From a virus (Duplodnaviria; Caudoviricetes): 61,958 nt of DNA. The translations under genes were made by a program, and so were the position numbers. Below, piece after piece: positions 1 through 61,936 of the stretch. Below the pieces are notes generated by a model. The model ran no database searches. It saw nothing but the letters and a program-made list of their open reading frames with translations, and was not told the origin of the DNA. Position 1 is the first letter of the stretch. Each line of letters begins with the position of its first letter. Where the stretch lies: positions 1 through 61,958 of IMG/VR virus record IMGVR_UViG_3300015050_000522. The stretch is one strand, 5' to 3'.

Positions 1-123
1 CACAGGCACTGATTCGGTTTAGAAAAGGCGGGTTTATTCGTTTAGATACGGATGAACGCGATGAAGTACAAAGCTTTCGCCGCAAGAACGCATACTATTA
101 AGGTTACAACATGAGCATTGAAC
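1..123. repeat. Terminal direct repeat / circular assembly overlap (copy 1)
   Basis: 1-123 is identical to 61836-61958 and spans the TerL 3' end and the portal start. Confidence 0.97.
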
Positions 124-2588
124 AATCTCTTAATCCTCCCCCTTTGGGGCTTGATAGTCTTATGCAGGAGGATGGCCCGGATTTAGAAATTGAAATTGAG
201 AATCCAGATGGTGTGCGCCTAGATATGAATGGCGTAGAAATTGTTATTGAGAACGAGCCAGAGGATGTTGAATTTGGCGATAACTTGGCCGAAGAGCTTC
301 ATAAGTCAGAACTATCAATTATTGCCAATGACATATTGGAAATGGTTGATGCGGATATTAATAGTCGCAAAGACTGGGTAGAGATGTATGTCAAGGGCTT
401 GGAAGTCCTTGGTATGAAGTATGAAGAGCGTACTGAGCCGTGGCTTGGCGCTTGTGGTGTTTTCTCTACCGTACTAACTGAAGCCGCCGTTCGATTTCAG
501 AGTGAAACCATTCTTGAAACATTCCCGGCGCAAGGCCCGGTCAAGACGGAAATCATTGGCGCTATAGATAAGATGAAGGAAGAGGCGGCTGAGCGGGTTC
601 GTGAAGACATGAACTATCAGTTGACCGAAGAAATGCCAGAGTACAGGCCAGAGCATGAAAAGATGCTTTATTCACTTGGCTTGGCTGGATCTGCGTTTAA
701 GAAGGTGTACTACGACCCTTCAATGAAACGTCAAGCGGCGATGTTTATTCCCGCTGAAGACATGATTATCCCGTATGGCGCATCTAGCTTGATTAGTTCT
801 GAGCGCGTAACGCACATCATGCGTAAAACGAAGAACGACATCCGTAAATTGCAGGTGTCAGGCTTCTATCGGGATGTAGATTTGGGTGAACCAGTAATGA
901 TTCACACCGACATTGAGAAAAAGAAAGCTGAAGATGCTGGTTTTAGTCTGACAGACGATGACCGATACCAAATTCTTGAGGTTCAGATTGACTATGACCT
1001 TCCCGGCTTTGAAGATGATGACGGAATTGCCCTGCCATACGTCATTACTATTGACCGAAACACTCAAGAAGTGCTGGCAATCCGCCGTAACTATGATGAA
1101 GACGACGAAACACGGGCAAAACGTGAGCATTTTGTCCAATATACATACATTCCCGGCTTTGGAGCTTATGGCCTTGGCTTAATTGCACTGATTGGTGGCT
1201 ATGCACGGGCTGGTACGTCACTAATTCGCCAGTTGATTGACGCTGGAACGTTGTCTAACCTACCGGGTGGCCTTAAATCACGCGGTTTGCGTATCAAAGG
1301 TGACGATACACCGATTGCACCGGGCGAATTCCGCGATGTAGACGTTCCATCAGGTACGGTACGCGACAACATTATGGCTTTGCCATATAAAGAGCCGAGT
1401 GCTGTTTTGGCGGCACTGCTAGATAAGATTACCGACGAAGGCAGACGCTTGGGTTCTATTGCTGACATGAATGTTAGCGACATGAGCGCCAATTCCCCGG
1501 TTGGAACTACGCTGGCAATCCTTGAGCGACAGCTTAAAAATATGTCGGCAGTGCAGGCGCGAGTTCACTTCTCAATGAAACAGGAATTTAAGCTGCTCAA
1601 AGGAATTATTCGAGACTACACGCCAAAAGAATACGAATACAACCCACAAGGTAACAACCGTAAAGCCAAACAAAGCGACTACGACATTGTTGAAGTGATT
1701 CCAGTTAGCGATCCGAATAGCTCCACGATGGCGCAACGGATTATGCAGTACCAAGCAATCATTCAGTTGTCGCAGCAAGCACCGCAGATATATGATTTGC
1801 CTCAGTTGCACCGCCAGATGATTGAAGTGCTGGGCGTGAAGAATGCAGACAAACTGGTTCCAGTTGAAGATGATTTAACTCCACGAGATCCAGTTAGCGA
1901 GAACATGGCGTTCCTTACTGGCAAGCCTACTAAAGCGTTTATCTATCAAGACCACGATGCACACATTGCAGTGCATACGGCTTTGATGCAAGACCCTACT
2001 ATGGCTGCACAAATGGGACAAAACCCACAAGCGCAAAAAATGATGGCCTCTATTCAGGCGCACATAGCAGAGCATTTGGCCTTTGCATATCGCAAGAAAG
2101 TTGAAGAGCAGTTGGGCGTACCAATGCCAGCGCCTAACTCCAAACTGCCTGAAGAGGTTGAAGTTCAACTGTCCCGTGTTGTGGCTCAAGCTGCTCAACA
2201 AGTTTTGGCACAAAGCAAAGGCCAAGCTCAACAACAGGAAGCCCAGCAGCAAGCGCAAGACCCGTTGGTTCAAATGCAACAACAAGAGTTGCAGATTAAA
2301 CAAACAGAAGCTCAAGCCAAGATTGCAAAAACCCAAGGCGAATTAGAAATTAAGAAGCAGGAATTGCAGTTAAAGATGCAGCAAGGCAACCAAGCCAAGC
2401 CTGATAATTCACAAGCACTTGTGCAAAAGCAACAGGCTGAAATGCAAATGATGCTGCAACGTCATCAGCAGGAAATGGCTCAAAATGCACAAGCATTCCA
2501 GCAGCGCATGGATATTGAAAAACAGTCAGCAGAGCAGCGCAATCAAATTGCTTTGATGCAGGCTCAAAACATAAAAGGAAATGAATAA
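111..2588 (+). CDS. Portal protein (podovirus type, Gln-rich coiled-coil C-terminus)
   Basis: 825 aa directly after TerL; GSAFKKVYYD motif; long Q-rich tail resembling a portal barrel. Confidence 0.9.
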   Translation: MSIEQSLNPPPLGLDSLMQEDGPDLEIEIENPDGVRLDMNGVEIVIENEPEDVEFGDNLAEELHKSELSIIANDILEMVDADINSRKDWVEMYVKGLEVLGMKYEERTEPWLGACGVFSTVLTEAAVRFQSETILETFPAQGPVKTEIIGAIDKMKEEAAERVREDMNYQLTEEMPEYRPEHEKMLYSLGLAGSAFKKVYYDPSMKRQAAMFIPAEDMIIPYGASSLISSERVTHIMRKTKNDIRKLQVSGFYRDVDLGEPVMIHTDIEKKKAEDAGFSLTDDDRYQILEVQIDYDLPGFEDDDGIALPYVITIDRNTQEVLAIRRNYDEDDETRAKREHFVQYTYIPGFGAYGLGLIALIGGYARAGTSLIRQLIDAGTLSNLPGGLKSRGLRIKGDDTPIAPGEFRDVDVPSGTVRDNIMALPYKEPSAVLAALLDKITDEGRRLGSIADMNVSDMSANSPVGTTLAILERQLKNMSAVQARVHFSMKQEFKLLKGIIRDYTPKEYEYNPQGNNRKAKQSDYDIVEVIPVSDPNSSTMAQRIMQYQAIIQLSQQAPQIYDLPQLHRQMIEVLGVKNADKLVPVEDDLTPRDPVSENMAFLTGKPTKAFIYQDHDAHIAVHTALMQDPTMAAQMGQNPQAQKMMASIQAHIAEHLAFAYRKKVEEQLGVPMPAPNSKLPEEVEVQLSRVVAQAAQQVLAQSKGQAQQQEAQQQAQDPLVQMQQQELQIKQTEAQAKIAKTQGELEIKKQELQLKMQQGNQAKPDNSQALVQKQQAEMQMMLQRHQQEMAQNAQAFQQRMDIEKQSAEQRNQIALMQAQNIKGNE

Positions 2589-2782
2589 TGGAATCCAAAG
2601 TATTTGATATTGCTATCGGCAAACTTGACGAACATATCAAAAATTTGGTTGAGGTCTTGAGTGGTGGTGGAGCTAAATCCTACGACCACTATAAAGAACT
2701 GTGCGGGAAAATCCAAGGTTTCCAGACCGCGCAGTATGAACTTGGCGACCTTGTGCGTAGACTAAAGGAAAACGATGACTAA
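2588..2782 (+). CDS. Small conserved head-module protein
   Basis: Coupled to the portal stop; YDHYKELCGKIQG motif. Confidence 0.75.
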   Translation: MESKVFDIAIGKLDEHIKNLVEVLSGGGAKSYDHYKELCGKIQGFQTAQYELGDLVRRLKENDD

Positions 2783-3173
2783 ATTTGATCTTGGTGCGAT
2801 TGATCTTTCTGGTGTGCTAAATACCTCTCAGGAAGAGAAAGCCAAGCAAGTACCTGACCCAGTGACCTATCACATTCTTTGCGTGCTTCCGGATGCGGAA
2901 AAAGAGTATGAAGGTGGTTTGCTCAAAGCAAGCCAAACCATACAGTTTGAGGAATTACTTTCCCCTGTACTGTTTGTGGCAAAAATTGGCCCTGATGCCT
3001 TTAAAGATGAAAAGCGATTTCCATCTGGCCCGTCCTGCAAAGAAGGCGATTTTGTTTTAGTTAGACCCAATACTGGTACGCGAATGAAAATTCACGGACA
3101 GGAAATGCGTCTGATTAACGACGATAGCATTCAAGCAGTAGTTCAAGATCCTCGTGGCCTTCAACGGGTTTAA
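2775..3173 (+). CDS. GroES/Cpn10-like co-chaperonin
   Basis: Cpn10 pattern: EGGLL mobile loop, VAKIGPD, KEGDFVLV, RLINDDSIQAVV. Confidence 0.85.
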   Translation: MTKFDLGAIDLSGVLNTSQEEKAKQVPDPVTYHILCVLPDAEKEYEGGLLKASQTIQFEELLSPVLFVAKIGPDAFKDEKRFPSGPSCKEGDFVLVRPNTGTRMKIHGQEMRLINDDSIQAVVQDPRGLQRV

Positions 3174-3184
3174 AGGAATACATC

Positions 3185-4138
3185 ATGGCTGAATTTGAAA
3201 AAACAGAATTTGAGTTTCCTGACGAAAAGGAAGAGAAGGCTACAAAAGTAGCTGGTCGCGCCTCGGAGCAGGAAGAAGAGCCAGAAATTGAAGTGGTTGA
3301 TGACACGCCAGAACGTGATCGCAACCGCACCAAAATGGCTGAGCCGCCCAAAGAGTTTGCTGACGAAGAGTTGAATAAGTACGACGAGAGCGTACAGAAA
3401 CGAATCAAGCATTTTACTAAGGGTTATCACGAAGAGCGCCGTGCAAAAGAGGCAGTTCAACGTGAGAAGGATGAAGCTATTCGCTTTGCCCAAACGATGG
3501 TTGAAGAGAATAAGCGCCTAAAAGGTTCGGTTAATCAAGGCCAAACAGCTTTGATTGAACAAGCCAAAAAGGTAGTTGCTAGTGAGCTTGAAAAAGCAAA
3601 GCAGCAATATAAAGATGCTTATGAAGCGGGTGATTCAAATGCCTTGGTAGACGCTCAGGAAAATCTAACTAGCGTTAAAATGAAGGCAGAGCGGGTTAAT
3701 AACTTTAAACCTCCTGCTGTACAAGAAGACGAAACTGATGTACAAACGCTACAACAGAAGTTTAAAGAACCGCCAATTGATGATAAATTAGCGGCATGGC
3801 AGGAAAAGAATCCTTGGTTTGGTAAGAATAAACGGATGTCTGCTTACGCCCTTGGGCTGCATGAAGATTTGACTGAAGAAGGTATTACCACTGGAAGCGA
3901 CGAATACTATAAACGTATTGACGCTGACATGAAAGAAAGATTTTCGGAGCAGTTTGGAGCCGAAGAGAAAGTTGATGCGAAATCTCAACGAACTAAATCC
4001 AACGTTGTTGCACCTGCAACCCGTAGCACAGCGCCTCGAAAGATCGTGCTTACGCAGACACAGGTGAATCTCGCCAAACGGCTTGGTGTTCCATTGGAAC
4101 TCTACGCTCGTAAGGTTGCTGAAGAAATGAGGAAATGA
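3185..4138 (+). CDS. Putative capsid scaffolding protein
   Basis: Acidic coiled-coil, WQEKNPWFG motif, C-terminal helix hook; lies between portal and capsid genes. Confidence 0.75.
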   Translation: MAEFEKTEFEFPDEKEEKATKVAGRASEQEEEPEIEVVDDTPERDRNRTKMAEPPKEFADEELNKYDESVQKRIKHFTKGYHEERRAKEAVQREKDEAIRFAQTMVEENKRLKGSVNQGQTALIEQAKKVVASELEKAKQQYKDAYEAGDSNALVDAQENLTSVKMKAERVNNFKPPAVQEDETDVQTLQQKFKEPPIDDKLAAWQEKNPWFGKNKRMSAYALGLHEDLTEEGITTGSDEYYKRIDADMKERFSEQFGAEEKVDAKSQRTKSNVVAPATRSTAPRKIVLTQTQVNLAKRLGVPLELYARKVAEEMRK

Positions 4139-51260: not shown

Positions 51261-53639
51261 ATGAGCTTAAATTTAAGAGCGTATCAAACGCAGTCGATAG
51301 AGGGTTTGCGTGCTGGGTTTGCAGCAGGCCACCGTTCACAGATTCTGTATGCCCCTACAGGGGCTGGAAAAACTGAAATGGCGATTGCTTTACTTGCGGC
51401 AACCAAGACTAAGGGCAACAAAGCTGCAATGATTCTGGACAGGATTATTCTTTGTGACCAGACAAGCCAGCGACTACAGAAGTACGACATCGACCACGGC
51501 GTTCTACAGTCTGGACACTGGCGGTATAGGCCATACGAAGCAATCCAAGTATGCAGCGCCCAAACACTAGAAAAGCGCGGCTCTTATCCGGGTCTGACAT
51601 TGATGATTGTTGACGAATGCCATGCGCTCCGCAAGCAAACCATCGACTTCATAAAGGCAAACCCTGATATAAAGGTTGTTGGCTTGAGTGCTACGCCATT
51701 TACTAAAGGGCTGGGTAAGGTCTATGAAAACGTTGTAAGCACGGTCACCACCGATGACTTGGTGAAGTCAAAGGTGTTGTCTCCGCTACGAGTATTCATA
51801 GCCAAAGAAATCAACATGGAGGGCGCTAAGAAGGTGGCTGGAGAATGGAGTCAAGCTGAATCCACCGAGCGCGGCATGAAGATTACGGGTGACATAGTAA
51901 GTGAATGGATTAGCAAGACGCATGAGATTTTTGGTAAGCCACGCAAGACGATTGTGTTCTGCTCTGGTGTAGAGCATGGTGCTGACTTGGCTAAGAAGTT
52001 TGCAGCAGCCGGGTATAACTTCATAAGCATCAGCTACAAAGATGATGAACAGTTTAAGAAGGATGTTATTGAGGATTTCTCAAAACCGGATACCGAGATT
52101 CATGGGTTGATTGCTACTGATATTTTGACCAAAGGATTTGACTGCGTACTTGAAGGCTCGCGCGTTTTGACAGATCGTGGACTTGTTGCCGTTGACAAAA
52201 TTTTGTTGAGTGATAAGATATGGGATGGTGTCGAATACGTTTCGCACGGCGGAGCAATTTACAAAGGGATTAAAAATGTCATTACTTATGCGGGACTCAC
52301 AGCAACAGAAGACCACCAAGTTAAAACAGCCAAGGGATGGCTCGCATTTGGAGAGTGCGCCAGATTTGGAATTCAAATTGTCACCACAGGAAATGGTCAA
52401 TCGCCAATTCAAGAACATGAAGGTTGTTTCAGAGGAAATTTATTTGGCAAATCGCAAGACAAATCGACATCAACTGAAATGTCAGTGCCAAAATTGCGGT
52501 CACATAGAGTTGGTGCTTTTGTCAATGCTGCTTGCGCCTCAATGGGCAGGATGCACATCTTGCACAGCACCCCAATGGTTGGTTCGTCGATGCAACGCTC
52601 AACAAGCTCGATGCACGAATCCATTGCACGCATCGTATCAGGACTACGGAGCAAGAGGAATTCAATTCAACTTTCAAAATCCTCGCGTAGCAGCGCAATG
52701 GGTAAAGGAAAATCTTGGTTTGCCGGAAAATATATCCATAAACATCCATCTGGACAGAATCAACAACAATGGTCATTACGAAGCTGGGAACTTGCGCTGG
52801 TCAACGCGCAAAGAAAACAATTCGCATACGCGAAGAAGCAAATACGTCGAGCGTTTTCATTTATTTCGAGCAGCCTATCCGAAAATACGTTATTCCGACA
52901 AAACGCTGAGAAATTTGATGGGATGTGGTCTAACGGATGCGCAGATCATCGAAAGATTTCAACGCCCATCCGACAAACCCAAGGGCATGTATGGGACGTT
53001 CTCAATTGCGGACCAAGAAATAGTTTCACTTGCGAGGGGTTGTTAATCCACAATTGCGCAGACGTAATGATTGGGGTATCAGCCAGACCGTTCAGTAAAT
53101 CCCTGTCCTACCATATACAACAAATGGGTAGAGTAATGCGTGGTCACGAAGGAAAAGAGTATGCAGTTTGGTTAGATTTTTCGGGTAACTACTTACGATT
53201 TCAGGAAGAGTGGGAACAGATATACGAAACTGGTGTGCAGCAGTTAGATGACACCAAAGAAAAAGCTAAGAAGGAAAAGACTGAGAAGGAAAAGGAAGCA
53301 GCCAAGTGTCCAAAGTGTGGTGCATTCTGGCCTAGTAAATCCGATACTTGTTTGCACTGCGGTCATGTGCGCCAGCGTCAAAACAAGGTGCAGAACGTTT
53401 CCGGTGAAATGCAAGAGCTAATTAAGGGAGTTGGTCGAGGCGACAAACAAGACTGGTGGAGTATGTGCCAGTACAAAGTAAAGTATTCGGGCTGGTCGGC
53501 TGGTCGTGCAGCACACACCTACAAAGATAAGTTTGGGAGCTGGCCTAGAGGCTTGGTCGATGTACCAACTGCGCCCAATGCTGTCTTTGACAAGGCGGTA
53601 AAGGCTGCGCTTATGAAGTTCATAAAGGGGAAAAGGTAA
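51261..53639 (+). CDS. SF2 DEAD/DEAH-like helicase with C-terminal Zn ribbon, intein-containing
   Basis: APTGAGKT, DECH, LSATP, TKGFD|C, QQMGRVMR, CPKC..CLHC. Confidence 0.92.
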   Translation: MSLNLRAYQTQSIEGLRAGFAAGHRSQILYAPTGAGKTEMAIALLAATKTKGNKAAMILDRIILCDQTSQRLQKYDIDHGVLQSGHWRYRPYEAIQVCSAQTLEKRGSYPGLTLMIVDECHALRKQTIDFIKANPDIKVVGLSATPFTKGLGKVYENVVSTVTTDDLVKSKVLSPLRVFIAKEINMEGAKKVAGEWSQAESTERGMKITGDIVSEWISKTHEIFGKPRKTIVFCSGVEHGADLAKKFAAAGYNFISISYKDDEQFKKDVIEDFSKPDTEIHGLIATDILTKGFDCVLEGSRVLTDRGLVAVDKILLSDKIWDGVEYVSHGGAIYKGIKNVITYAGLTATEDHQVKTAKGWLAFGECARFGIQIVTTGNGQSPIQEHEGCFRGNLFGKSQDKSTSTEMSVPKLRSHRVGAFVNAACASMGRMHILHSTPMVGSSMQRSTSSMHESIARIVSGLRSKRNSIQLSKSSRSSAMGKGKSWFAGKYIHKHPSGQNQQQWSLRSWELALVNAQRKQFAYAKKQIRRAFSFISSSLSENTLFRQNAEKFDGMWSNGCADHRKISTPIRQTQGHVWDVLNCGPRNSFTCEGLLIHNCADVMIGVSARPFSKSLSYHIQQMGRVMRGHEGKEYAVWLDFSGNYLRFQEEWEQIYETGVQQLDDTKEKAKKEKTEKEKEAAKCPKCGAFWPSKSDTCLHCGHVRQRQNKVQNVSGEMQELIKGVGRGDKQDWWSMCQYKVKYSGWSAGRAAHTYKDKFGSWPRGLVDVPTAPNAVFDKAVKAALMKFIKGKR
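52143..53054 (+). mobile_element. Intein (304 aa, Cys...His-Asn|Cys) in helicase motif V
   Basis: Block A CVLEGSRVLTDRG; block B TATEDHQV; blocks F/G VWDVLN...FTCEGLLIHN|C. Confidence 0.93.
52210..53046 (+). CDS. HNH homing endonuclease nested out-of-frame inside the intein (start uncertain: 52276 ATG or 52366 TTG)
   Basis: KCQCQNCG..GCTSC; RCTNP..YQDYGARGI; LDRINNNGHYEAGNLRWSTRKEN. Confidence 0.85.
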   Translation: MIRYGMVSNTFRTAEQFTKGLKMSLLMRDSQQQKTTKLKQPRDGSHLESAPDLEFKLSPQEMVNRQFKNMKVVSEEIYLANRKTNRHQLKCQCQNCGHIELVLLSMLLAPQWAGCTSCTAPQWLVRRCNAQQARCTNPLHASYQDYGARGIQFNFQNPRVAAQWVKENLGLPENISINIHLDRINNNGHYEAGNLRWSTRKENNSHTRRSKYVERFHLFRAAYPKIRYSDKTLRNLMGCGLTDAQIIERFQRPSDKPKGMYGTFSIADQEIVSLARGC

Positions 53640-53809
53640 TGATGACAAAAAAAGAACTGTTGCAAATGGACACCTTACGCGCTCAGTTGGCGGCAGAACG
53701 AAAGCGCTCAGAGGAGGCTATTGATGCGTACCGTGTGTACCTGTACGAATTGGTAGATTGCAGGATAAAACTTGAACGAATACAAAAAGTGTTTGAGGGT
53801 AAAGAGTAA
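53639..53809 (+). CDS. Small coiled-coil protein (56 aa)
   Basis: TAATG coupling at both ends. Confidence 0.6.
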   Translation: MMTKKELLQMDTLRAQLAAERKRSEEAIDAYRVYLYELVDCRIKLERIQKVFEGKE

Positions 53810-60212: not shown

Positions 60213-60437
60213 ATGAGTCCAGCGCAGAAAGAGGTGTTTCTGGTCATTGATGAGTGGTGGAAGAAGTTTGGGTATTCGCCGTCATTGAGGGAGATTGCTT
60301 ATGTGCGTGGCAAGATGGGGTTAGCGAACACTCACAAGATTGTGGAGAGGTTAGTTAAGCTTGGCGTGTTGAAGAAGATAGATGGCGCGGGTCGGACGAT
60401 TCGGCCTACGTATATACAGTTTAGGAATCTTGAGTGA
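60213..60437 (+). CDS. LexA-like winged-helix DNA-binding protein lacking a peptidase domain
   Basis: GGAGG RBS; MSPAQKEV...FGYSPSLREIA...LVKLGVL (track starts at 60147). Confidence 0.78.
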   Translation: MSPAQKEVFLVIDEWWKKFGYSPSLREIAYVRGKMGLANTHKIVERLVKLGVLKKIDGAGRTIRPTYIQFRNLE

Positions 60438-61936
60438 ACGACTTTACGAGTATTGAGAAGTTGATGGCTGGGTTGCCTATACAGGAGCAGGAGATACTTC
60501 TGGCTCAGGTGGAAGAGTACAGGATGGCGCTGGAGCGGGAAGAGGCTCAGAAGAGTTTTATGGCTTACGTGAAGATGATGTGGCCTAGTTTTGTGCATGG
60601 TAGGCATCATGCGGTAATGGCAAAAAAGTTTGAGGCTATCGCCAATGGGACGCTAAAGAGGCTGATTATTAATATGCCGCCGCGACATACTAAGTCTGAG
60701 TTTGCGTCTTACTTGCTGCCGTCGTGGTTTTTGGGACGGTATCCGGGTAAGAAGATTATTCAGTCATCGAACACTGGCGACTTGGCGGTTAACTTTGGGC
60801 GTAAGGTTCGGAACTTGGTGGATAGTGAAACGTATGCCAAGGTATTTCCCGGCGTGGCTTTGAGGCAGGATAGTAAGGCTGCGGGTAGGTGGGCTACTAA
60901 TCACAATGGCGAGTATTTTGCTATTGGTGTTGGCGGTACGGTAACTGGCAAGGGTGCGGATCTATTGATTATTGATGACCCGCATTCTGAGCAGGAAGCT
61001 TCTATGGCTGCTGGCGACCCTACTGTATTTGATAAGACGTATGAATGGTATACGTCAGGCCCACGCCAGCGACTGCAACCGGGCGGGGCTATTGTTGTAA
61101 TTATGACGAGGTGGGGGCAGAAAGATTTAGTAGGCCGGATTATTAAAGATGCGGCAATGCGGGATAAGTCTGAAGAGTGGGAGGTAATTGAGTTTCCCGC
61201 CATCATGCCTAGTGGTAATCCCTTATGGCCTGAGTTCTGGTCGTTGGATGAATTAGAAGCACTGCGGGAAGAACTGCCACCTGCCAAGTGGAATGCTCAG
61301 TACCAGCAAGCACCTACTGGCGAAGAGGGGGCTTTGGTTAAGCGGGAATGGTGGAAGGTCTGGGAGGGTGAGAAGCCGCCTAGATGTGAATTTATTATTC
61401 AGTCATGGGATACGGCGTTTACCAAGTCGGAGCGGTCTGACTATTCGGCGTGTACGACATGGGGTGTATTTCATATGAATGAAGACCCTAATAATGTGAA
61501 TATCATTTTGCTGGATGCTTTTAAGAAACGGATGGAGTTTCCTGAGTTGAAAGATAAGGCTGTAGAGATGTATAAGGAGTGGGAGCCTGATGCCTGCGTG
61601 GTTGAGGCTAAGGCTTCTGGAGCGCCGTTAATATTTGAATTACGGGCAATGGGAATACCTGTACAGGATTTCACACCTAGTAGGGGCAATGATAAATTTG
61701 TGCGATTAAATTCAGTGACTGATTTATTCCGCAGTGGTAAAGTGTGGTGTCCTGAGACAAGATGGGCTAGTGAGGTTATTGAAGAACTGGCAGCATTCCC
61801 AAATGGGGAGCATGATGACCTTGTAGACTCAAGTACACAGGCACTGATTCGGTTTAGAAAAGGCGGGTTTATTCGTTTAGATACGGATGAACGCGATGAA
61901 GTACAAAGCTTTCGCCGCAAGAACGCATACTATTAA
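60434..61936 (+). CDS. terL: Terminase large subunit
   Basis: INMPPRHTKSE; IIDDP; IMTRW; SWDTA; HDDLVDS. Confidence 0.95.
   Translation: MNDFTSIEKLMAGLPIQEQEILLAQVEEYRMALEREEAQKSFMAYVKMMWPSFVHGRHHAVMAKKFEAIANGTLKRLIINMPPRHTKSEFASYLLPSWFLGRYPGKKIIQSSNTGDLAVNFGRKVRNLVDSETYAKVFPGVALRQDSKAAGRWATNHNGEYFAIGVGGTVTGKGADLLIIDDPHSEQEASMAAGDPTVFDKTYEWYTSGPRQRLQPGGAIVVIMTRWGQKDLVGRIIKDAAMRDKSEEWEVIEFPAIMPSGNPLWPEFWSLDELEALREELPPAKWNAQYQQAPTGEEGALVKREWWKVWEGEKPPRCEFIIQSWDTAFTKSERSDYSACTTWGVFHMNEDPNNVNIILLDAFKKRMEFPELKDKAVEMYKEWEPDACVVEAKASGAPLIFELRAMGIPVQDFTPSRGNDKFVRLNSVTDLFRSGKVWCPETRWASEVIEELAAFPNGEHDDLVDSSTQALIRFRKGGFIRLDTDERDEVQSFRRKNAYY

What the first reader, a model, noticed from the sequence alone, without database searches (positions are those of the whole stretch)
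52143..53054. Dual-coding intein: the homing endonuclease is hidden in an overlapping reading frame
Seen: the helicase is interrupted in motif V (TKGFD|C) by a 304-aa intein with canonical blocks A, B, F and G. Its ~200-aa middle has no LAGLIDADG or HNH motif and reads like off-frame sequence (S/R/Q-rich), yet it has no stop codon. The +1 frame (52210-53046, entirely inside the intein) encodes a coherent HNH nuclease: CQC..CG and CxxC, RCTNP..YQDYGARGI, LDRINNNGHYEAGNLRWSTRKEN. Two SD-like starts are available (AAGGGA..ATG 52276; GGAG..TTG 52366). Established: intein endonucleases are normally in-frame between blocks B and F. Inference: the intein makes the insertion harmless at protein level while the nuclease is translated separately or by a frameshift, which uncouples homing from splicing. 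Standard gene callers would miss it. I recall a loosely similar hidden HNH in a phage methylase insertion, so novelty needs a literature check.
Basis: partly seen in the sequence, partly recalled or inferred. Interest (0 to 1): 0.92.

Follow-up and report, generated by a model that had tools for sequence, protein, structure and literature searches.

The report
Intein with out-of-frame endonuclease gene
A phage helicase gene carries a self-splicing intein whose middle is only a stop-free spacer in the helicase frame, while a complete homing-endonuclease-like gene sits in the +1 frame; the arrangement is real and widespread, but similar designs were described in 2025-2026.

Summary
Window 51261-53639 encodes a 792-aa SF2 helicase. 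A 304-codon intein (52143-53054) interrupts it after LTKGFD, and intein-free alleles are 488 aa. In frame 0 only intein codons 1-99 and 272-304 fold (Hint fold, matching solved mini-inteins). Codons 100-271 are modelled as disordered.

A 217-codon ORF in the +1 frame (ATG 52393 to TAA 53046) folds confidently (pLDDT 84.8) and matches PHROG "HNH endonuclease" families (E about 1e-18).

In the window's own clade the middle evolves under purifying selection in +1 (omega 0.07) and not in frame 0 (omega about 2). Frame 0 has 0 stops where synonymous shuffles expect 6-16 (0 of 2000 shuffles reach zero in 19 of 20 loci).

The same nesting occurs in 97 distinct loci: helicases at three or more sites, and family A polymerases. 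Related nestings occur in Jerseyvirus (+2) and APSE (+1) polymerase inteins. Closest exteins are intein-free and intein similarity exceeds extein similarity, which indicates homing.

Caveats: the "HNH" module has Arg where HNH_3 has the catalytic His, no Pfam hit and only a weak PacI fold match, so nuclease activity is inferred. No properly spaced Shine-Dalgarno motif precedes the conserved start.

Out-of-frame intein endonucleases were already published in 2025-2026 and, as those papers cite, in 1998. This is a new, very widespread member of a known kind.

The parts
51261..52142 (+). N-extein of the SF2 helicase (residues 1-294, ends ...ATDILTKGFD, motif V by established helicase knowledge)
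   Evidence: Pfam ResIII 4.7e-18, DEAD 1.6e-09, and Helicase_C 2.1e-05 cut off at residue 294. PHROG phrog_16 DNA helicase 8.3e-66. Intein-free 488-aa alleles align across the junction.
52143..53054 (+). Intein, 304 codons in the helicase frame (Cys1 ... His303-Asn304, followed by Cys +1)
   Evidence: The insertion is absent from 76 of the 119 helicase relatives classified. C1, T55, H58, H303 and N304 are invariant in 23 of 23 aligned inteins. The AF2 model's Foldseek matches are mini-inteins.
52143..52439 (+). N-terminal splicing domain (intein codons 1-99; blocks A and B)
   Evidence: Mean pLDDT per 10-residue block is 95-68 over residues 1-100. Frame-0 omega is 0.07-0.12, and substitutions peak at frame-0 codon position 3, e.g. 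[12,8,33].
52440..52955 (+). Frame-0 linker (intein codons 100-271): stop-free, unconserved, predicted disordered
   Evidence: pLDDT is below 50 for residues 100-271. Frame-0 amino-acid identity is 0.45 with omega about 2. No Pfam or PHROG hit beyond the N-terminal block. This stretch is deleted in the mini-inteins P0037 (148 aa) and L036 (157 aa).
52956..53054 (+). C-terminal splicing domain (intein codons 272-304; blocks F and G), overlapped by the 3' end of the nested ORF
   Evidence: pLDDT is 65-94. Selection returns to frame 0 from about codon 281. Frame-0 omega is 0.04-0.16.
52393..53046 (+). Nested ORF in the +1 frame: 217 codons plus TAA (53044-53046). Homing-endonuclease-like protein with an N-terminal beta-barrel and Cys4 zinc ribbon, a YGARGI / D-R-I-N-N-N-G-H-Y-E-x-G-N-L-R-W core, and a C-terminal helical domain.
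   Evidence: PHROG HNH families at E 1e-17 to 1e-18. AF2 mean pLDDT 84.8. +1 amino-acid identity 0.75, pN 0.16, pS 0.76, omega 0.07. The start codon is conserved in 78 of 80 loci. Free-standing homologues begin at the aligned Met or Leu.
52486..52563 (+). Cys-x2-Cys ... Cys-x2-Cys zinc ribbon of the nested protein (C32, C35, C54, C57)
   Evidence: Invariant in 24 of 24 family members.
52753..52818 (+). beta-beta-alpha-like core of the nested protein (D121 R122 ... Y129 E130 ... N133 ... N142)
52210..52392 (+).
   Evidence: +1 omega is about 1 in codons 1-80. ATG 52276 is conserved in the five site-a inteins, where it overlies the conserved frame-0 Y-K-G..[N/D]-V codons; that it is a by-product of those codons is my inference. 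No ATG is visible at that spot in the PolA inteins (read from the alignment, not tested by a call). The GGAGAG before TTG 52366 is not conserved.
53055..53639 (+). C-extein of the helicase, starting with the +1 Cys (TGC 53055-53057); includes a C-terminal zinc ribbon
   Evidence: The junction reads GAC|TGCGCA here against GAC|GTTTCA (D|VS) in the intein-free allele L203. Weak Pfam zinc-ribbon hits fall at residues 679-707.

Best explanation
This is a two-gene mobile element inside a phage replicative helicase gene.

In the helicase frame it is an intein. The N-terminal (about 99 codons) and C-terminal (about 33 codons) Hint-fold halves are joined by a roughly 170-residue stop-free, unstructured linker. 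After translation the intein splices out and restores the 488-aa helicase (inferred from conserved splice residues and fold).

The DNA of the linker and of the C-terminal splicing block is at the same time a complete gene of a free-standing type in the +1 frame (ATG 52393 to TAA 53046). Its 217-aa product is a zinc-ribbon plus beta-beta-alpha-like DNA enzyme, related to phage proteins annotated as HNH homing endonucleases.

That product most likely cuts or nicks intein-free helicase alleles near GAC|GTT, so that repair copies the whole module in (inferred).

Selection on the nested gene sets the sequence of the middle. Selection on the helicase only forbids stops in frame 0. That costs the nested protein nothing, because a frame-0 stop arises only from a T-ending +1 codon followed by a codon starting AA, AG or GA.

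The nested protein is most likely made by independent internal initiation at the conserved ATG/TTG/GTG (about 0.65). It probably arose when a free-standing homing gene invaded a mini-intein.
For: Shown:
- Hint fold at both ends, disordered middle in frame 0.
- Confident fold of the +1 product.
- PHROG HNH families at E 1e-17 to 1e-18, and 76 BFVD phage proteins at E<=1e-3 labelled HNH endonuclease, homing endonuclease or AP2.
- Window clade (WIN, L197, L117, L118; gap-free 304 codons): in the middle, +1 amino-acid identity is 0.75-0.86 and omega 0.07; frame-0 identity is 0.44-0.56 and omega 1.9-2.2; differences by frame-0 codon position are [89,47,23]. The splicing blocks show the reverse.
- The switch in selection falls at codons 81-100 and about 281.
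- PolA clade, 10 inteins and 45 pairs: middle [4955,2639,1930], +1 identity 0.64 against frame-0 0.30.
- Stop avoidance: 0 observed against 5.9-15.6 expected in 20 loci; 0 of 2000 shuffles reach zero in 19 loci and 1 of 2000 in L063. Ten free-standing relatives carry 2-32 stops in the equivalent frame.
- 97 distinct nested loci. In the 80 with mapped boundaries, 78 have ATG (66), TTG (8) or GTG (4) at the aligned codon, all at +1.
- Free-standing homologues start at that codon.
- Mobility: the seven closest exteins (0.94-0.80 identity) are intein-free. P0004's intein is 0.84 identical to the window's while the exteins are 0.70 identical. Homologous inteins sit at three sites of the same helicase and in PolA.
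- The mini-inteins P0037 and L036 lack the middle.
Against: - There is no invariant His. Arg occupies the position after the conserved Asp.
- In P0226 the shared module lies beside a separate genuine HNH_3 domain. The module could therefore be a DNA-binding or degenerate domain, and catalysis is unproven.
- None of the 78 loci has an SD-like motif at -16..-5. A GGAG/GGAA abuts the start at spacing 0-1, so how translation starts is open.
- Decayed copies exist: L087 has one stop in the nested ORF, L019 has lost the C-terminal block, and L125 and P0225 carry single indels.
- There is no expression, splicing or cleavage data.
Confidence: 0.85

Rival explanations
1. The nested protein is not made from its own start. 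It is made by a programmed +1 ribosomal frameshift from the helicase/intein frame, giving an N-extein / intein-N / endonuclease fusion that ends at the +1 stop. The conserved GGAG/GGAA just upstream would act as an internal SD-like stimulator, as in prfB.
For: A GGAG/GGAA element directly abuts the conserved codon in nearly all loci, and no SD sits at initiation spacing. The +1 frame is open 36-74 codons upstream of the conserved ATG.
Against: The aligned codon is always a legitimate start (ATG, TTG or GTG in 78 of 78 intact loci). Free-standing homologues begin exactly there. +1 selection begins at that codon, and the upstream +1 peptide is unconstrained (omega about 1). Reading the sequence, there is no frame-0 stop or evident slippery or hungry codon at the site. 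The GGA-RAT-GG is also explained by the conserved frame-0 T-G-[N/D]-G. A fusion would lack the C-extein and waste a helicase.
Confidence: 0.06
2. The nested ORF encodes a sequence-specific DNA-binding protein without nuclease activity: a degenerate, His-less HNH_3-like or AP2-like module. It promotes spread of the intein by recruiting another nuclease, by nicking poorly, or by some other benefit to the element or phage.
For: There is no invariant His, and Arg replaces the expected general base. Pfam HNH models are not matched. In P0226 the module is paired with a genuine HNH_3 domain. BFVD neighbours include proteins labelled AP2/ERF or DNA-binding domain. An Atlas neighbour cluster carries I-HmuI_NUMOD-like in 26% of its members.
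Against: About 200-aa free-standing relatives carry only this module. They are widespread in phages, in places typical of homing genes. The strand-strand-helix arrangement and conserved D, N, Y, E residues fit a variant beta-beta-alpha-metal site. PacI, the best fold match, is recalled (not seen here) to use Tyr instead of His. Intein mobility across sites and genes needs a break at the target (established homing model).
Confidence: 0.2
3. The arrangement is a passing accident. An originally in-frame endonuclease was knocked out of frame by compensating indels (or by sequencing error) and is decaying. The intein is effectively a mini-intein with junk.
For: Single-indel and nonsense variants exist: L125, P0225, L087. 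Mini-inteins exist.
Against: The same frame relation holds in 97 distinct loci from many assemblies and lineages. +1 omega is 0.07 with saturated synonymous change. +1 amino-acid identity is kept down to 25-40% across clades. No in-frame version appeared among the 2 longer proteins found (weak evidence, as the tool itself says). Stop avoidance is maintained in all 20 loci tested.
Confidence: 0.02
4. The insertion is not a splicing intein. It is an in-frame tolerated loop, like the ShiLan domain of mycobacteriophage methylases, that merely carries a hidden endonuclease gene.
For: Published precedent for a non-intein in-frame insertion with an out-of-frame HNH (PMC11855218: abstract and passages).
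Against: C1, T-x-x-H, H-N and the +1 Cys/Ser are invariant. The Hint fold is confident, with mini-intein matches at probability 1.00. The insertion splits helicase motif V, and at other sites splits conserved blocks. The +1 residue differs between intein-bearing (Cys) and intein-free (Val) alleles.
Confidence: 0.02

Closest known systems
[quoted passage not shown]
   Same: Splicing domains are in the host frame. A complete secondary ORF on the same strand lies in another frame between the splicing blocks. The in-frame middle gives no recognisable structure. The authors proposed origin by invasion of an intein by a free-standing homing gene, and noted that annotation pipelines miss these ORFs.
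Cyanobacterial dnaX intein with a LAGLIDADG endonuclease in a +2 ORF (Phillips, DeSimone, Gogarten, bioRxiv 10.64898/2026.09.14.751524; abstract and sections 10 and 17 read). It cites Gorbalenya 1998, 'Non-canonical inteins' (not held).
   Same: Disordered in-frame middle and a confidently folded alternate-frame product. Frame-dependent dN/dS, low in the alternate ORF and raised in the host frame. Mini, full and intein-free alleles coexist. Secondary invasion was proposed.
   Different: LAGLIDADG rather than HNH-like, +2 rather than +1, and a cellular gene rather than a phage gene. They report putative SD motifs upstream; here none sits at canonical spacing.
ShiLan domain: hidden out-of-frame HNH in mycobacteriophage DNA methylase (Arsenault et al. 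2025, PMC11855218; abstract, passages and section 4.3 read)
   Same: An in-frame, stop-free insertion whose alternate frame encodes an HNH-type endonuclease. The start lies just inside the insertion and the stop within its last bases. The translation route is unknown.
   Different: ShiLan has no intein splicing motifs or fold and is thought to stay as a loop. Here the insertion is a bona fide intein by residues and fold. The 6 mycobacteriophage rows shown, of 39 matching records, were in 153-158 kb genomes under 'hypothetical protein' or 'HNH endonuclease', none under a methylase.
Fractured genes: split inteins flanking a free-standing homing endonuclease gene (Dassa et al. 2009, PMC2677866; abstract start and passages seen)
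   Same: A free-standing-type endonuclease gene sits between the intein halves. Its 3' end overlaps the downstream intein-C coding region by 6-69 bp.
   Different: There the host gene is physically split into two ORFs and spliced in trans. Here frame 0 stays open across the endonuclease gene, so the intein is contiguous and cis-splicing.
[quoted passage not shown] 1997, known to me only as cited)
   Same: An intein plus an HNH-type homing function in phage genes.
   Different: In those the endonuclease is a domain of the intein polypeptide. Here it is a separate gene product, and no in-frame form of this family was found.

Membership tests
Intein (Hint-fold protein-splicing element) | Nucleophilic Cys/Ser at position 1 | tested here: met
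   Cys1 is invariant in 23 of 23 aligned inteins. Window TGC 52143-52145.
Intein (Hint-fold protein-splicing element) | Block B T-x-x-H | tested here: met
   T55 and H58 are invariant in 23 of 23. The window reads TATEDH.
Intein (Hint-fold protein-splicing element) | C-terminal His-Asn followed by Cys/Ser/Thr in the C-extein | tested here: met
   H303 and N304 are invariant. The +1 residue is Cys or Ser in all loci with mapped boundaries. The intein-free allele has Val at that codon.
Intein (Hint-fold protein-splicing element) | Hint fold formed by the N- and C-terminal parts | tested here: met
   AF2 pLDDT is 90 or more over most of residues 1-99 and 272-304. Foldseek matches Mtu RecA (5.6e-05), DnaX, gp41-1 and Ssp DnaB mini-inteins at probability 1.00; 16 matches at E<=1e-3.
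Intein (Hint-fold protein-splicing element) | In-frame insertion at a conserved site, absent from close orthologues | tested here: met
   76 of the 119 classified relatives lack any insertion, including the seven with the most similar exteins. L203 junction.
Intein (Hint-fold protein-splicing element) | Protein splicing activity | not testable with these tools
   Needs expression of the precursor and detection of a 488-aa product.
HNH / His-Me finger (beta-beta-alpha-metal) endonuclease | Match to a curated HNH profile at its threshold | tested here: not met
   Pfam: no HNH family for the window protein. HNH_3 is touched by 2 of 24 family members at E 0.0034, below threshold. NCBIfam: none. 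PHROG families annotated HNH endonuclease are matched at 1e-17 to 1e-18, but those names are annotation only.
HNH / His-Me finger (beta-beta-alpha-metal) endonuclease | beta-beta-alpha-metal fold | tested here: inconclusive
HNH / His-Me finger (beta-beta-alpha-metal) endonuclease | Conserved general-base His at the end of strand 1 | tested here: not met
   No invariant or nearly invariant His in 24 sequences. The residue after the conserved Asp is Arg in 24 of 24. In P0226 a separate genuine HNH_3 domain follows this module.
HNH / His-Me finger (beta-beta-alpha-metal) endonuclease | Conserved Asn on strand 2 and a metal-ligand Asn/His on the helix | tested here: met
   N133 is invariant in 24 of 24. 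N142 is invariant only in the 3-sequence alignment.
HNH / His-Me finger (beta-beta-alpha-metal) endonuclease | DNA cleavage | not testable with these tools
   Needs a cleavage assay on an intein-free allele.
Non-canonical intein with a homing endonuclease in a separate reading frame (Gosselin et al. 2025; Phillips et al. 2026) | Complete endonuclease-like ORF in another frame within the intein, with the in-frame middle unstructured | tested here: met
Non-canonical intein with a homing endonuclease in a separate reading frame (Gosselin et al. 2025; Phillips et al. 2026) | Purifying selection on the alternate frame, relaxed in the host frame over the overlap | tested here: met
Non-canonical intein with a homing endonuclease in a separate reading frame (Gosselin et al. 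2025; Phillips et al. 2026) | Sporadic distribution or horizontal transfer of the intein | tested here: met
   extein/intein incongruence; several sites and genes. No formal tree test was run.

The most novel reading that the evidence does not exclude
One family of small, His-less, zinc-ribbon plus beta-beta-alpha-like phage homing genes has repeatedly settled out of frame inside mini-inteins: +1 in the helicase, Firmicutes/Actinobacteria PolA and APSE lineages, and +2 in Jerseyvirus. Together they form a widespread two-gene drive-plus-insurance module. The module has retargeted to at least three sites within 42 codons of one helicase and to family A polymerases. Its endonuclease is translated from an SD-less internal start inside an actively translated gene. 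If so, it is a natural series for studying how homing specificity jumps between sites, and how an internal ORF is initiated in the middle of another frame.
Probability: 0.45. Interest if true: 0.62.

Novelty: new member of a known kind. Interest (0 to 1): 0.5.

Why it matters
Annotation. Hundreds of public phage and prophage records carry an unannotated gene inside an "intein-containing DNA polymerase" or helicase. These include Jerseyvirus Salmonella phages, Javan Streptococcus prophages, Gardnerella prophages, the APSE phage and freshwater phages. Some records split the host gene into three (SS3e). The nested protein is missing from a 5.8-billion-protein database except where short contigs truncate the host gene.

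Intein evolution. This is the best-populated case I have seen for "mini-intein invaded by a free-standing homing gene". All stages are present: full, nonsense-mutated, indel-bearing, mini and empty alleles.

Tractability. The same module sits at three neighbouring sites of one helicase and in another gene, so retargeting can be studied.

Overlapping genes. Keeping frame 0 open costs the nested protein nothing, which explains why such nestings can persist.

Open points that could hold something new: the non-canonical active site (Arg for His) and the SD-less internal start.

Tried and rejected
Sequencing error or compensating indels: rejected. The same frames hold in 97 distinct loci and selection per frame is clean.

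L125 looked like an in-frame N-extein/HNH fusion. Six-frame reading shows a single indel near 2856-2872 that shifts both ORFs together. P0225 is the same kind of variant.

ATG 52276 is conserved only in the five site-a helicase inteins, where it overlies the frame-0 Y-K-G..[N/D]-V codons. TTG 52366 and its GGAGAG are not conserved.

A single-sequence scan of viral contigs with P0002 found nothing. Alignments were needed.

A megablast of the gene against the phage collection found nothing.

MAFFT of all long helicases misplaced the inserts. Pairwise alignment to an intein-free allele replaced it.

Fold and profile searches for the nested protein that gave nothing clear:
- Foldseek PDB.
- PDB sequence profile, 0 hits.
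- NCBIfam.
- VIA-align, which did not list T4 endonuclease VII or I-HmuI among its 50 rows. That excludes nothing.

The search for longer in-frame fusions gave only 2 proteins, and the tool warns that this is weak evidence.

Literature. Searches found no report of a +1 HNH-like ORF in helicase, PolA, Jerseyvirus or APSE inteins. The library lacks most subscription journals and Gorbalenya 1998. Supplements were closed and not opened. The supplementary tables of 10.1101/2025.01.02.630785 and Table 1 of PMC11855218 (only its caption seen) may list related elements.

Papers as seen:
- 10.64898/2026.09.14.751524: abstract, sections 10 and 17.
- PMC11855218: abstract, passages, section 4.3.
- 10.1101/2025.01.02.630785: passages only.
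- PMC2677866: passages only.
- PMC12613952: listing and start of abstract.
- PMC549080 and 10.1101/2020.03.17.996009: one passage each.
- Shen et al. 2010 on PacI: recalled, not seen.

Not done: no formal phylogenetic incongruence test, no read mapping, no complex prediction, no search of the window's own genome.

Full report
WHAT IS THERE

The window is a tailed-phage genome of 61,958 bases. It has a portal gene at the start and a terminase at the end, with ParB-like and primase genes beside the locus. It holds one copy of the element.

ORF 51261..53639 (+) encodes a 792-aa SF2 helicase: Pfam ResIII, DEAD and Helicase_C, and PHROG phrog_16. The Helicase_C match stops at residue 294.

Pairwise alignment to an intein-free 488-aa relative puts a 304-residue insertion exactly after LTKGFD. 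It begins with Cys, ends with His-Asn and is followed by Cys. A second ORF, 52210..53046, lies wholly inside it in the +1 frame.

THE TWO FRAMES

The in-frame middle has no family hit. The +1 product hits PHROG families annotated HNH endonuclease: phrog_374 at 4.8e-18, phrog_3377 at 1.3e-17, phrog_8790 at 1.3e-13 and phrog_2081 at 1.4e-10.

Frame 0, AlphaFold2 with a 23-sequence alignment:
- Residues 1-99 and 272-304 are mostly at pLDDT 90 or more.
- Residues 100-271 are below 50, with block means of 24-34.
- The model's Foldseek matches are solved mini-inteins (Mtu RecA, DnaX, gp41-1, Ssp DnaB) at probability 1.00, with 16 matches at E<=1e-3.

The 217-aa +1 product from ATG 52393, with a 24-sequence alignment, has mean pLDDT 84.8 and no segment below 50.

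IT IS CONSERVED, NOT AN ERROR

The best tblastn hits of the +1 protein in annotated phages fall inside "DNA polymerase I" genes of Streptococcus Javan prophages and a Gardnerella phage. There too the match is +1 relative to the annotated CDS, and the polymerase frame runs through it as junk-like sequence.

Profile-guided scans of viral, genome and metagenome contigs gave 276 loci in all. After removing identical host ORFs, 97 distinct loci have the endonuclease-like match nested inside a longer open frame of more than 400 codons.

Host genes are SF2 helicases and family A DNA polymerases.

Of 16 intein-bearing helicase loci, 15 are intact. L125 carries one indel that shifts both ORFs together.

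Other decayed copies:
- L087: one stop in the nested ORF, intein frame intact.
- L019: C-terminal block lost.
- P0225: a single indel.

SELECTION PER FRAME

The window and its three closest DNA relatives (L197, L117, L118) have gap-free 304-codon inteins.

Over intein codons 88-270:
- Frame 0: amino-acid identity 0.44-0.56 and omega 1.9-2.2.
- +1 frame: identity 0.75-0.86, pN 0.08-0.16 and pS 0.59-0.76, with omega 0.07 where dS is not saturated.
- Substitutions peak at frame-0 codon position 1, which is position 3 of the +1 frame, e.g. [89,47,23].

In the splicing blocks the pattern reverses: frame-0 omega is 0.04-0.16 and differences are [12,8,33].

A sliding window puts the switch at codons 81-100 and back at about codon 281.

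Ten PolA inteins (45 pairs) show the same. In the middle, differences are [4955,2639,1930], with +1 identity 0.64 against frame-0 0.30.

STOP AVOIDANCE

In 20 nested ORFs from different lineages frame 0 has 0 stops. Synonymous-codon shuffles expect 5.9-15.6. No shuffle of 2000 reaches zero in 19 loci, and 1 of 2000 does in L063. The third frame carries about the expected number.

Ten free-standing relatives carry 2-32 stops in the equivalent frame.

From the geometry of the frames, a frame-0 stop needs a T-ending +1 codon before a codon starting AA, AG or GA. The frame can therefore be kept open by synonymous choice alone.

EXTENT AND START OF THE NESTED GENE

In 80 loci with both intein boundaries mapped, 78 have ATG (66), TTG (8) or GTG (4) at one aligned codon, all at +1. 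The other two are a decayed copy and a mini-intein. Free-standing homologues begin at that codon, and +1 selection starts there.

In the window this codon is ATG 52393, and the stop TAA 53044-53046 lies 8 nt before the intein end. In other loci the stop lies 50 nt before the intein end or 22-31 nt past it. The gene therefore overlaps the whole C-terminal splicing block, and about 15 codons of the N-terminal domain that the mini-intein L036 retains.

No SD-like motif lies at -16..-5 in any of the 78 loci. A GGAG or GGAA abuts the start, and this is also the conserved frame-0 T-G-[N/D]-G.

The peptide between it and 52393 is unconstrained. It may still be used. A gene caller chose its equivalent in P0123.

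MOBILITY

Among 119 classified helicase relatives:
- 76 have no insertion.
- 10 have this intein after LTKGFD (site a).
- 25 have it after EYAVWL (site b).
- 6 have it after AVWLDH (site c).
- 2 have an unrelated intein at DE|CH.

The seven exteins most like the window's (0.94-0.80 identity) are intein-free. P0004's intein is 0.84 identical to the window's, and 0.93-0.96 in the splicing blocks, while the exteins are only 0.70 identical.

The intein-free allele L203 reads GAC|GTTTCA (D|VS) where the window reads GAC|TGCGCA (D|CA) around the insertion.

Mini-inteins at the same sites, P0037 (148 aa) and L036 (157 aa), lack the middle.

These are the expected stages of a homing cycle. I ran no formal tree test.

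WHAT THE NESTED PROTEIN IS

It has:
- an N-terminal beta-barrel with a Cys4 ribbon (C32, C35, C54, C57);
- a core R-C-x-N-P ... Y-G-G-R-G-I ... D-R-I-[D/N]-x-x-G-x-Y-E-x-G-N-x-R;
- a helical tail.

It belongs to a large phage family. 76 BFVD models match at E<=1e-3, labelled HNH endonuclease, HTH homing endonuclease, AP2/ERF or uncharacterised. Matches occur in 421 phage records.

The HNH label is not secure, for these reasons:
- No Pfam HNH hit.
- No NCBIfam hit or PDB sequence hit.
- Foldseek against PDB gives nothing clear.
- There is no conserved His.
- In P0226 the module sits beside a separate genuine HNH_3 domain.

I therefore call it HNH-like and treat nuclease activity as an inference, from family context and from the element's behaviour.

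WIDER OCCURRENCE

The same ORF family is nested in other intein lineages:
- Jerseyvirus polymerase inteins, in the +2 frame. In L277 the CDS is 681..3779 and the nested ORF 2114..2857. The SS3e record annotates three genes instead.
- The APSE-4 P45 polymerase intein, in the +1 frame. In L279 the nested ORF is 1367..2017.

KNOWN OR NEW

Out-of-frame or antisense endonuclease genes in inteins are in print:
- Actinophage inteins with an endonuclease VII-like ORF in frame 3 (passages).
- The cyanobacterial dnaX intein with a LAGLIDADG +2 ORF and frame-dependent dN/dS. That paper credits Gorbalenya 1998.

A non-intein analogue, ShiLan, is also published.

My six searches found no report of this family, frame or hosts. 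An APSE paper notes loss of the polymerase intein without mentioning a nested ORF in the one passage seen.

I therefore rate it a new and unusually widespread member of a known kind. It is well supported and of moderate interest, with two open mechanistic points: the active site and the initiation route.

Noticed in passing
P0012-P0119 (proteins); L119-L124, L200-L202, L037-L038 (loci): Homologous intein-plus-nested-ORF modules occupy three sites within 42 codons of the same helicase family: after LTKGFD, after EYAVWL, and after AVWLDH with a Ser +1. At sites b and c the nested ORF starts with TTG or GTG instead of ATG.
   Followed up: partly
P0071, P0103 (proteins): A different, unrelated 275-aa intein with precomputed Pfam intein-type domains sits in the DE|CH (motif II) site of the same helicase family.
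   Followed up: no
L205:1474-4728: The helicase frame is 1085 codons here. That is long enough for two insertions in one gene: the site-c module plus another of about 280 codons.
   Followed up: no
L277:2114-2857 (Salmonella phage vB_SenS_Psm105) and L278 (phage SS3e): The Jerseyvirus polymerase intein carries an ORF of the same family in the +2 frame. The SS3e RefSeq record annotates the region as three separate genes (polymerase, HNH endonuclease, polymerase). 131 Salmonella phage records match the window protein.
   Followed up: partly
L279:1367-2017 (Bacteriophage APSE-4 P45): The DNA polymerase intein of the aphid-symbiont phage APSE holds a 216-aa ORF of the same family in the +1 frame. 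It is unannotated in the record.
   Followed up: partly
P0226 residues 236-320 and 336-374: A 406-aa protein has the D-R type module directly followed by a genuine Pfam HNH_3 domain (E 1.7e-11). This suggests the module may be a degenerate duplicate or a DNA-binding partner of a true HNH.
   Followed up: partly
L097:3-2531: A weak match to the endonuclease-like family (62 bits) lies inside an 843-codon open frame that carries a Pfam InPase domain. This may be another nested case in a third kind of host gene.
   Followed up: no
H10 (Staphylococcus phage PT94, 46104-46616): The match to the nested protein lies under a feature annotated dUTPase. This may be another nesting or a mis-annotation.
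   Followed up: no
window 53637-53641: The helicase stop TAA overlaps the ATG of the next small ORF (53639..53809) in a TAATG arrangement, which suggests translational coupling. SD-like motifs precede the helicase start and the ORF at 53809, so the host appears to use SD-led initiation. That makes the SD-less nested start stand out.
   Followed up: no
window 1-2588 and 60434-61936: The portal gene is at the left end and the large terminase at the right end of the 61,958-base window. Relatives sit on 60-70 kb contigs, so the window is probably a complete or nearly complete phage genome.
   Followed up: partly
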